Source: Lama glama (Eukaryota). Taken from it: a stretch of DNA of 64,000 nucleotides. The notes beneath the pieces were generated by a model. The model was not told the origin of the DNA, did not search any database, and worked only from the letters and a program-made list of their open reading frames with translations. Of the stretch, positions 22,901 through 25,900 are shown piece by piece. The translations under genes were made by a program, and so were the position numbers. The stretch's first letter is position 1. Every line of letters starts with the position of its first letter. The stretch is taken from NCBI GenBank assembly GCA_028534125.1, contig CM052837.1:37386001-37450000 (forward strand). Direction: 5' to 3'.

Positions 22901-25900
22901 GGCTCCGGTTGGGCTTTTGGCCTGGCTGCCCTTGGACTTGCAGTTTCCTGTGGGGGAGCCAGCGGCTTCATGGTGTTAAGAATGGGCAGAAGATTCAGTG
23001 CTCTGCTCTGCAGGGAAGTTTTAAGTTCTGTCGGGAGGAAATGACCCTCTTTCTTAGTTTACTTCTGGTGTTCTTTGTACTTGCTGTTGCCGTCGTAAAG
23101 GGGGCTTGTGTGAGGAACCTGCTGGTTTCTGTCTGTCGGCCTCGGGTGGAGGTATCTGAGAAAGACATCTTTGTGGTTCTGAGCATCTGTCATTTTGTTT
23201 TCCTGGATGTTCTGAGTAGGCAGTCACGTCGTTGGTGACATCTAGTGTTTTGCACCTTCTGCTCCGCTGTTCACCTCTTGTAGTTCTCTCTTGGCTCGTT
23301 GCATTGGCTAAAAGCGCACTTCTTGTTTTACTCCTCCTGTCCCTTCTGGAAATCAACTAGGTTCCTTGCCGCTGGCCCAGTCCTGGGTGAGAGGGGAGGG
23401 GTCGGGCTGCTGACTTGGGCCTAGTCCCCGTGGGAGCACATGGACTGGCTGCCAGGGGGCCGGGGGGCGCTGCAGGGTGACTGTGTCTCCAGTGCAGTGG
23501 GGTCCTTGAGGCGAGGGGACAGGCAGTTCCCATTTCTCGGCCTGGGGTCCTGCCCCAGAGTCGCTGCCGACGTGGAGGCAGGGGCAGGTTATGCTGCGGC
23601 TTTGAGCACATCTGTCCTGTGTGGGTGCAGCTCAGCAGGAGTGGCAGCCTCTGGTGTGTCTTGAGTGACCAGTGTGGCCTGCCAACTTTGTCCCCCATCT
23701 CTTCCTTCTAGAGCGTGTTTAGCGTGGACCCTGCTGAAGGCGGCCCTGGTTCCATGGTGGGGCCTGGGGCCTCTCAGTCCTACAAGGTGGGGGCTCCCTC
23801 CAGGATGCAGGGCCCCCGGGCGGGGGTCTCAGTCCTACAAGGTGGGGGCTCCCTCCAGGATGCAGGGCCCCCGGGCGGGGGTCTCAGAACACCCGTCCAT
23901 TCCACTTCTCCAGGTGCACATTCACCCAGATGTTGGTCACCGGAGGGTAGCCCAGCGGTCAGATGCCTGGAACATCACAGCGGCCAGAAAGCAAGGTACA
24001 TAGAGCACTTCAAGGGGCCGGGACAGGCTCCCCTGCCCAGCCTGGTGGCCCCTCCTCCAGTTGTTGGCTCCCAGCTGCCTGTTGGTCTGTTCTCCCCACG
24101 AAGTCGCTACCTGCTTTCTGAAAGTCAGAGAGATCAGAGTGAGAAAGACCTCAGGGGGGCACGGGGACTGCCTGGAGTCACCTGGTGGGGATCCCACCTG
24201 ACATGTTTCTACAAGGGGTCTGTCAGCCCACACACTCCGCAGAGCACACAGGGGGCCTGGGGCCTGGGGCTGGTACTGGGTCCCCAAGGTCTCCTGTGGT
24301 GACTCCTGCCATCGCTGGTGCGGGGCTGGCCCCGACGACGTGGGCCTGCGCCCACCGCCTTCTCGTCACAGGGCAGACCCCGTCCCGGAAAGTGGTTGGT
24401 TCTTTTTTGGGAGTGTCCCTGCTGACCTTGGCATGGCCTTGACTTTAATCCTTAAAGCATCTGCTGGTGCTGTTTCCATTTGCTGAGGTCTGCAGGGGAG
24501 GTGGGCGTGTCTGTGTGTGTAGGCACAGCTGGTTTCCTGCCTCCAGGGGAACGTGGGCCGCGCCCCTCCCTCCTTTGCCGTCCTGCCCGGAGTCTGGTGG
24601 ATGGTTCCCCATGCCCTGAGCCACGTGGATGTCTGGGGTAGGGGTAGGCTGACCTCTCTGGAAGTGACCTCGGCATCCCCACCCACCTTGGGGGTCCTGG
24701 GGAAGCTCCTCTGGGTCTGCATCCTGCTCCTGGGACCCCCGAGGGAGGGCCCCAGCCATGCGCTCAGCTCCCTGCTCAGGCAGGCCCCGGGATCAGACCG
24801 TGGGAGAGACGCACCAGGGCTGCTGGGGGGCCCGGGGGCCCTGGCCTCACTCTCTCAGCCCCCGCAGGGAAGGTGTTGAGCTACTGGTGCTTCAGCCCCG
24901 GCCACAGCGTGCGTGAGCTGGTCCGCCAGGGCGTGCGCAGCCTCATCCTCACCAGCGGCACACTGGCCCCTGTGTCCTCCTTCGCCCTGGAGATGCAGAT
25001 GTAAGGGCTGCCCCCCTGCCCTGGGCTGGTGGGGTGCTGGGGGACCAGGGTCTCTCAGTGCCACACCCGCCTCCCTCTAGTCCTTTCCCCGTCTGCCTGG
25101 AGAACCCCCACGTCATCGACAAGCACCAGATCTGGGTGGGGATCGTCCCCAAAGGCCCTGATGGAGCCCAGCTGAGCTCTGCCTTTGACAAACGGTAGGG
25201 GGCCTGGCGGGCTAGGAGGTGGACGGGCCAAGTGCTGGGGACTCTCACGGCAACGGCGTCCTGGTTCCACAGGTTCTCTGAGGAGTGCTTGTCCTCCCTG
25301 GGGAAGGCGCTGGGTGAGTGCCCATCCAGTCCCAGGGCCCTGCCCCATTCTGAGCCCACCCCCACTCTGCTCGCTGTCCTGCCTGGTCGCCCTCGGGGAG
25401 CCAGTGGGAGCCTCTGCGGTCACCCTCTCCTGCTGACCAAGGCCGCGGCACCTGCAGGCAACATCGCACGCGTGGTCCCCCATGGGCTCCTCGTCTTCTT
25501 CCCTTCCTACCCTGTCATGGAGAAAAGCCTGGAGTTCTGGCAGGTGCGTCTCTCCTCTGAGTGTCTGCCTGGCGGGGGAGGGGAGCCCCAATGGCCAAGG
25601 GTCTGGTGGGGCCAGAGGGAGGGCCCTCATCTGAGAGGGTGTTTCAGGAGTCCCCTTCCCCACCTCTTCCCACAGGCCCGCGACTTCGCCAGGAAGCTGG
25701 AGGTCCTGAAGCCCCTGTTCGTGGAGCCCAGGAGCAAAGGAGGCTTCTCGGAGGTCTGGTCACTGGGCTCCGCTGCCCTGCTGGGCTGGCCGCTGTCCCT
25801 GACCAGGGGCTCAGGCCAGCTCCAGGCTGTGTGGCACTTAGGTCCTGCTGGCCTTTGAGAAAGTTTGGGCACAGGGACAGCGGCAGGAGACACTGTGTCT

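What the first reader, a model, noticed from the sequence alone, without database searches (positions are those of the whole stretch)
23772..23913. Perfect 55-bp duplication gives RTEL1 two identical splice donors, one of them frameshifting
Seen: the last 15 nt of exon 23712-23786 plus 40 intronic nt are exactly duplicated, so TACAAG|GTGGGG occurs after 23786 and after 23841. The upstream donor gives a 127-nt intron and the correct frame. The downstream donor gives a 72-nt intron (probably the ancestral length), adds 55 nt and reaches TGA at 24914-24916. Inference: a young mutation that could route part of the mRNA of an essential telomere helicase to NMD, acting as a hypomorphic allele or a dosage switch. 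The copies are identical, so it is recent, polymorphic or an assembly artefact.
Basis: partly seen in the sequence, partly recalled or inferred. Interest (0 to 1): 0.7.

Follow-up and report, generated by a model that had tools for sequence, protein, structure and literature searches.

The report
Old duplicated splice donor, camelid RTEL1
A 55-base stretch across one exon-intron boundary of the telomere helicase gene RTEL1 is present twice in South American camelid DNA and in camel-type RNA, so it is likely an old, tolerated change rather than a new mutation or an assembly error, and the extra splice signal is probably mostly ignored, as in several known human genes.

Summary
In detail: 23772-23826 is repeated exactly at 23827-23881, giving RTEL1 coding exon 14 two identical donors (introns of 127 or 72 nt); the second would shift the frame to TGA 24914-24916. 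The interpretation mostly fails. It is no assembly error: 4 of 4 DNA runs laid, under four organism labels, hold the junction at about two-copy depth. It is not young: 3 of 3 informative RNA runs with Camelus-type residues carry it too, with one difference between copies, which likely places it before the Camelini-Lamini split (about 16 million years, PMC5577142). Those runs show only the 127-nt joint; contig depth roughly caps the second-donor product at 2-14% of steady-state RNA. Cat isoforms keep this intron as 24 codons, supporting a 72-nt ancestor. Best reading: a near-neutral, microhomology-type duplication with a silent pseudo-donor, the layout of human F7 intron 7 (PMC1557585). The scan noted this kind before on other DNA, including camelid CUL2. 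No RNA of the window's own lineage and no NMD-blocked RNA was laid, so a small leak stays open.

The parts
4923..32081 (+). RTEL1 coding region, 35 coding exons, open frame with the first donor
   Evidence: 1262 of 1276 residues identical to alpaca RTEL1 P0121; tblastn
23712..23786 (+). coding exon 14 (75 nt, residues 396-420, inside the ARCH domain 275-458)
23772..23826 (+). repeat copy 1: last 15 nt of exon 14 plus 40 nt of intron
23827..23881 (+). repeat copy 2, identical to copy 1 in the window
   Evidence: junction contig 23803-23856 in 4 of 4 DNA runs
23882..23887 (+). trailing TCTCAG, the 6-nt homology that flanks the unit; holds a predicted branch adenine at 23886 (28 nt before the acceptor end)
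   Evidence: branch point only predicted from motif
23787..23788 (+). donor 1 (GT), the one used: 127-nt intron, frame kept
   Evidence: joint skipping 127 nt, GT..AG, in 3 of 3 covering RNA runs
23842..23843 (+). donor 2 (GT), identical pseudo-donor: 72-nt intron, +55 nt, frameshift
   Evidence: sequence; no joint listed for it
23787..23913 (+). intron 14, 127 nt (72 nt before the duplication)
   Evidence: ancestral length from felid isoforms
23914..23995 (+). coding exon 15
24914..24916 (+). premature TGA in exon 16 reached by donor 2 use or by retention of the 127-nt intron

Best explanation
This is a real 55-bp tandem duplication across the RTEL1 exon 14 donor, shared by South American camelid DNA and camel-type RNA, that likely arose once before the two camelid tribes split and is likely tolerated because the spliceosome takes the upstream donor. 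Shown: the duplication, its presence in seven runs, the 127-nt joint. Inferred: origin by slippage or template switch between two TCTCAG stretches 55 nt apart; silence of donor 2 by first-come (5' to 3') donor choice as shown for human F7, helped by the short distance from donor 2 to the predicted branch point (44 nt against 99 nt) and perhaps by four G-runs between the donors. Net effect: a 72-nt intron became a 127-nt intron, the protein is unchanged, and any leak to donor 2 would end at an NMD-type stop.
For:: 4 of 4 DNA runs laid (of 14 DNA holders) show a 54-nt junction contig and a 61-nt repeat contig; reproduces exactly this layout and gives junction/flank depth 0.89, 1.09, 1.51, 1.01 (1.0 expected for two copies on both chromosomes, 0.5 for a carrier of one single-copy allele, which the simulation disfavours in each run, P 0.015 or less). 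RNA runs X15-X17 are about 96% identical in introns (48 differences in 1174 nt) and carry two coding differences that match Camelus, not Vicugna, proteins; each has an 85-nt contig across the junction; of five genotypes simulated only 'two copies, variant in copy 1' gives both observed contigs; a single copy gives a 127-nt contig needing a gap, which was not seen; the one joint listed skips 127 nt (depth 121-135) while the repeat contig has depth 2, 4.1 and 15.5, below both flanking introns in each run; 18 of 19 camelid RTEL1 proteins examined have the donor-1 junction, the other starts downstream. Precedent: PMC1557585. Steric threshold near 50 nt: PMC7969005.
Against: No RNA of the window's own lineage was laid; donor use was seen only in the sister lineage, in reproductive-tract libraries of two studies. 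Contigs drop rare forms and their depth is a poor measure of expression (tool text); NMD would lower the donor-2 product further. X19, the fourth RNA run, does not cover the site. DNA runs were ranked by likeness to this haplotype, and X1 and X2 may be its source. Protein databases cannot hold a frameshifted form. PMC1557585 also reports that human 6-16 and CBS use downstream pseudo-donors, that earlier gamma-globin duplication experiments gave opposite results in two groups, and that mutating G triplets did not change the choice in F7. The ancestral 72-nt intron had donor-2 geometry and was spliced (spliced felid isoforms), so that geometry is not prohibitive. Folding does not separate the donors. 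The copies differ less than neutral drift predicts (1 seen, 3.7 expected, P 0.11).
Confidence: 0.78

Rival explanations
1. Regulated unproductive splicing: donor 2 is used in some tissues or states and sends part of RTEL1 mRNA to NMD; the duplication has been kept for about 16 million years because of that.
For: Donor 2 is intact and identical in the window and in the camel-type contigs; its product has an NMD-type stop; copies are slightly more alike than drift predicts (P 0.11); human 6-16 and CBS use downstream pseudo-donors (PMC1557585).
Confidence: 0.1
2. Selected intron lengthening: the duplication was favoured because it moved the used donor away from the branch point of a near-minimal 72-nt intron, improving removal, and turned in-frame retention (24 residues into the ARCH domain) into retention that is cleared by NMD.
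For: Three felid isoforms retain the 72-nt intron in frame (P0115, P0116, P0243); 127-nt retention reaches the same stop as donor 2; predicted donor-to-branch distance rises from 44 to 99 nt across a proposed threshold near 50 nt (PMC7969005); the repeat contig is shallower than the flanking introns.
Against: The branch point is only predicted, and a second candidate at 23899 lies 57 nt from donor 2; the same gene keeps a 64-nt intron and four of 78-83 nt; nothing here tests selection.
Confidence: 0.07
3. Recent or still segregating mutation, or two independent origins in the two tribes through the same microhomology.
For: Copies are identical in the window; DNA runs were picked for likeness to it; X11 has junction depth 1.5 times the flanks, a weak hint of a three-copy allele (P 0.026 under two copies, one run of four).
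Against: Same breakpoints in the camel-type runs, with a difference between their copies; no single-copy contig in any of the 7 runs that cover the site.
Confidence: 0.04
4. Assembly artefact.
For: Perfect identity; the assembly has 1,072,352 contigs.
Against: Junction contig at flank depth in 4 of 4 DNA runs, two of them (X11, X13) not flagged as a possible source.
Confidence: 0.01

Closest known systems
Human F7 intron 7 37-bp VNTR (Borensztajn et al. 2006, PMC1557585; abstract, synopsis, introduction and passages read)
   Same: First unit spans the exon-intron boundary; identical donors follow in the intron; only the most upstream one is reported to be used; GTGGG-type donor with G-runs.
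   Different: Two copies instead of five to nine; unit holds 15 exonic nt instead of 4; the intron is short, so the pseudo-donor sits 72 nt from the acceptor; copy number variation not shown here.
Human LMNB2 (100-bp unit) and PDGF intron 4 (81-bp unit) minisatellites, as cited in PMC1557585
   Same: Reiterated donor, only the authentic one used.
   Different: 10-18 copies; known to me here only through that paper's introduction.
Human 6-16 intron 2 and CBS intron 13 minisatellites, as cited in PMC1557585
   Same: Reiterated donor; the precedent for a leak to downstream copies.
   Different: Downstream donors are reported to be used there; no such joint was seen here.
Poison (unproductive) alternative 5' splice sites coupled to NMD (general class, from my own knowledge)
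   Same: The alternative donor would give a stop 84 nt before a junction with 19 junctions downstream.
   Different: No evidence that the isoform is made, regulated or under constraint.

Membership tests
Tandem repeat spanning an exon-intron boundary with reiterated donor (F7 intron 7 type) | First unit spans the exon-intron boundary | tested here: met
   15 exonic plus 40 intronic nt
Tandem repeat spanning an exon-intron boundary with reiterated donor (F7 intron 7 type) | Downstream pseudo-donor identical to the authentic donor | tested here: met
   Identity over 15 nt upstream and 46 nt downstream of the cut
Tandem repeat spanning an exon-intron boundary with reiterated donor (F7 intron 7 type) | Most upstream donor is the one used | tested here: inconclusive
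   Only the 127-nt joint in 3 of 3 covering RNA runs, but these are contigs from the sister lineage; minor use cannot be excluded
Tandem repeat spanning an exon-intron boundary with reiterated donor (F7 intron 7 type) | Variable copy number among individuals | tested here: inconclusive
   3 of 4 DNA runs fit two copies best; X11 fits two-plus-three slightly better (log-likelihood 1.97 against 0.96)
Tandem repeat spanning an exon-intron boundary with reiterated donor (F7 intron 7 type) | Pseudo-donor becomes active when the first donor is lost | not testable with these tools
   Needs a minigene
Poison alternative 5' splice site coupled to NMD | Stop more than 50-55 nt upstream of a later exon junction | tested here: met
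   84 nt to the next junction, 19 junctions downstream; the rule itself is recalled
Poison alternative 5' splice site coupled to NMD | The isoform is made | tested here: inconclusive
   No 72-nt joint listed; rough cap 1.9-14.1%; contigs drop rare forms
Poison alternative 5' splice site coupled to NMD | Isoform rises when NMD is blocked | not testable with these tools
   No such library among the 24 runs listed, by their library descriptions
Poison alternative 5' splice site coupled to NMD | Sequence kept under constraint | tested here: inconclusive
   1 difference seen, 3.7 expected at the flanking intron rate, P 0.11
Assembly artefact | Independent sequencing data show one copy | tested here: not met
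   Junction contig in 4 of 4 DNA runs; a single copy would give one unbroken contig

The most novel reading that the evidence does not exclude
All camelids carry a built-in poison switch in RTEL1: one 55-bp duplication turned a near-minimal intron whose retention is in frame in other mammals into one where both retention and a twin donor lead to NMD, and it has been kept almost unchanged for about 16 million years because cells use it to tune the dose of this telomere helicase.
Probability: 0.1. Interest if true: 0.55.

Novelty: new member of a known kind. Interest (0 to 1): 0.17.

Why it matters
As it stands it is a dated natural example of a duplicated donor that an essential gene has carried for millions of years, in a setting (a pseudo-donor only 72 nt from the acceptor) that makes a neat minigene test of first-come choice against proximity. 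It also warns that two identical short copies do not prove a recent origin. If donor 2 were used in a regulated way, it would show a poison splice site born in one step in a dose-sensitive telomere gene; the data so far point away from that.

Tried and rejected
Search of metagenome contigs for mammalian RTEL1 loci to read the intron in outgroups: 20 loci, best-segment identity 32-68%, none close enough to be mammalian; not used. Protein search with the translated intron frame 23787-23996: 140 candidates, none scored. PDB search with exon 16: best hit FANCJ, not informative. Local folding to separate the donors: both about equally buried in three window sizes; rejected as the mechanism. A 9-nt microexon 23833-23841 using the copied AG: it would need a 46-nt upstream intron, below the 65-nt threshold given in PMC4463651 (passages), has no pyrimidine tract, and no such joint was listed. 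An RNA circle or lariat as the source of the 85-nt contigs: their period is 55 and includes 15 exonic nt, and the two break patterns need two slightly different copies. RNA run X19 has no cover at the site: no evidence either way. A recalled human disease variant at the matching donor was not found (0 papers; no occurrence in the 16 listed) and is dropped. Not-in-print check: at least 4 of RTEL1, camel, alpaca, duplication, intron, splice; 1,031 papers, 20 listed, none on camelid RTEL1 by title and abstract start; RTEL1 and camelid; 5 papers, 4 listed, none relevant; search listings only. Earlier scan notes by place and by sequence: nothing. No supplements were opened.

Full report
Observation. 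The window is period-55 identical from 23772-23832 to 23827-23887; Tandem Repeats Finder.1 copies at 100%, the only perfect array among 18 rows in the window. The unit starts with TCTCAG and the same six letters follow the second copy, the usual footprint of slippage or template switching between short homologies (inference from general knowledge). A spliced alignment guided by alpaca RTEL1 P0121 gives 35 coding exons from 4923 to 32081 and an open frame 1262 of 1276 identical; alpaca RTEL1 P0005 was the best of the full-length proteins in tblastn, so the host is taken to be a South American camelid. The unit covers the last 15 nt of coding exon 14 (23712-23786, inside the ARCH domain) and 40 nt of intron. 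Donor 1 gives a 127-nt intron and the right frame; donor 2 gives a 72-nt intron, adds 55 nt and stops after residue 481 at TGA 24914-24916, 84 nt before the next junction with 19 junctions downstream. Retention of the whole 127 nt reaches the same stop. The own genome holds one match for the locus.

Is it real? One search listed 24 runs, 14 of them DNA-type holders at 0.96-0.98 of the words under four organism labels. I laid 4 of the 14, one per label. All four show the same layout: a left contig ending at 23801, a 54-nt junction contig 23803-23856, a 61-nt repeat contig and a right contig from 23858. A de Bruijn simulation gives exactly this for two or more copies and one unbroken contig for a single copy. 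Junction depth over flank depth is 0.89, 1.09, 1.51 and 1.01, repeat depth 1.86, 2.06, 2.73 and 1.91; a carrier of one single-copy allele (0.5 and 1.5) is disfavoured in each run (P 0.015 or less, assuming 150-nt reads). X11 fits two-plus-three copies slightly better than two-plus-two (P 0.026 for the junction depth under two copies; one run of four), a hint only. Limits: runs were ranked by likeness to this haplotype, and X1 and X2 may be its source; X11 and X13 are not so flagged.

Is it young? I laid 4 of the 6 RNA runs. Three cover the site. They differ from the window at 48 of 1174 intronic positions and carry two coding differences, in exon 13 (seen in the loose ends) and at 23742, that match the Camelus proteins and not the Vicugna proteins; I read them as Old World camels (inference). 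Each has an 85-nt contig that crosses the junction without a gap and with one difference at 23814: 23772-23856 in X15, 23784-23868 in X16 and X17. Of five genotypes simulated, only two copies with the variant in copy 1 yields both contigs; a single copy yields a 127-nt contig that needs a gap. So the duplication, with the same breakpoints, is in both tribes, whose split is put at 15.8 million years (9.2-23.2) in PMC5577142 (passages) and at 11-25 million in PMC4884201 (passages). At the flanking rate 2.1 differences between copies are expected in the window's lineage and none is seen (P 0.13); both lineages together 3.7 expected, 1 seen (P 0.11). Identity of 55 nt is therefore no proof of youth, and no sign of constraint either. 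For the ancestral state, 229 of 252 proteins fetched had a recognisable exon 15 start; 218 have the normal junction, 8 are odd gene models lacking exon 14, and 3 felid isoforms (P0115, P0116, P0243) carry a 24-residue insert starting like the camelid intron, that is a 72-nt intron kept in frame. No artiodactyl outgroup intron could be read.

Which donor is used? The only joint listed skips 127 nt, GT..AG, at depth 135, 121 and 121. No joint skipping 72 nt is listed at a 1% threshold, but contigs drop rare forms. A firmer bound comes from the repeat contig, 43 of whose 55 words any donor-2 mRNA must contain: depth 2, 4.1 and 15.5 caps that mRNA at 1.9%, 4.1% and 14.1%, and in each run this depth is below that of both flanking introns, so unspliced RNA or DNA can explain all of it. 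The tool warns that contig depth is a poor measure of expression, NMD would deplete the product, and these are two studies of one organ system in the sister lineage. For the window's own lineage there is only indirect evidence: 7 of 7 alpaca proteins, and 11 of 12 Camelus proteins, have the donor-1 junction, the other starting downstream; such collections cannot hold a frameshifted form.

Mechanism. The core donor cannot decide, being identical, and folding leaves both equally buried. PMC1557585 (abstract, introduction and passages) shows for human F7 intron 7, whose 37-bp repeat copies the donor, that the downstream sites work but do not compete and the most upstream is taken; it cites LMNB2 and PDGF as the same, 6-16 and CBS as leaking, and found no role for G triplets in F7. 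Here geometry likely adds to this: the best-placed branch motif (A at 23886) is 99 nt from donor 1 and 44 nt from donor 2, under the threshold near 50 nt cited in PMC7969005 (passages). This step is predicted only; another candidate at 23899 is 57 nt from donor 2, and the ancestral intron was spliced with that geometry. I commit to: one old duplication, donor 1 used, donor 2 near silent, protein unchanged (0.78). A side effect is that retention, in frame in cats, is frameshifting in camelids.

Novelty. The layout is known from human genes, and the scan's own notes hold several such cases on other DNA, among them camelid CUL2 and SMG1 (unchecked notes, found after I had the F7 paper). I found no paper on this RTEL1 case (listings only). 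New member of a known kind; interest 0.17. The boldest reading left open, a camelid-wide regulated poison donor, gets probability 0.1.

Noticed in passing
window 20473-20623 joined to 23712: In two of three camel-type RNA runs (X15 depth 49 against 72 for the normal joint; X17 30.7 against 50; not in X16) exon 14 is also joined to a piece that maps just behind exon 13, consistent with a cryptic donor about 151 nt into intron 13. The window has no GT there and a TGA early in the extension, so this may be a polymorphic, frame-breaking donor of Old World camels, a better candidate for an RTEL1 leak than the finding itself.
   Followed up: partly
P0115, P0116, P0243 (window 23787-23913 equivalent): Felid RTEL1 isoforms retain the matching 72-nt intron in frame, adding 24 residues in the ARCH domain.
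   Followed up: partly
window 23803-23856, run X11: Junction depth 1.5 times and repeat depth 2.7 times the flanks: weak hint of a three-copy allele.
   Followed up: partly
window 26764-26827: Intron 22 of RTEL1 is only 64 nt in my spliced alignment, at the lower limit for mammalian introns.
   Followed up: no
window 8603-8759: An older 77-bp tandem duplication, 87% matches, inside intron 5.
   Followed up: no
window 31165-31166: The alignment placed a GC donor after exon 31 with two residue differences to P0121 beside it; the boundary may be off or non-canonical.
   Followed up: no
P0063, P0194, P0196, P0198; P0094, P0209-P0212: Warthog and right whale isoforms carry extra residues between exons 13 and 14, so intron 13 yields alternative pieces in several artiodactyls.
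   Followed up: no
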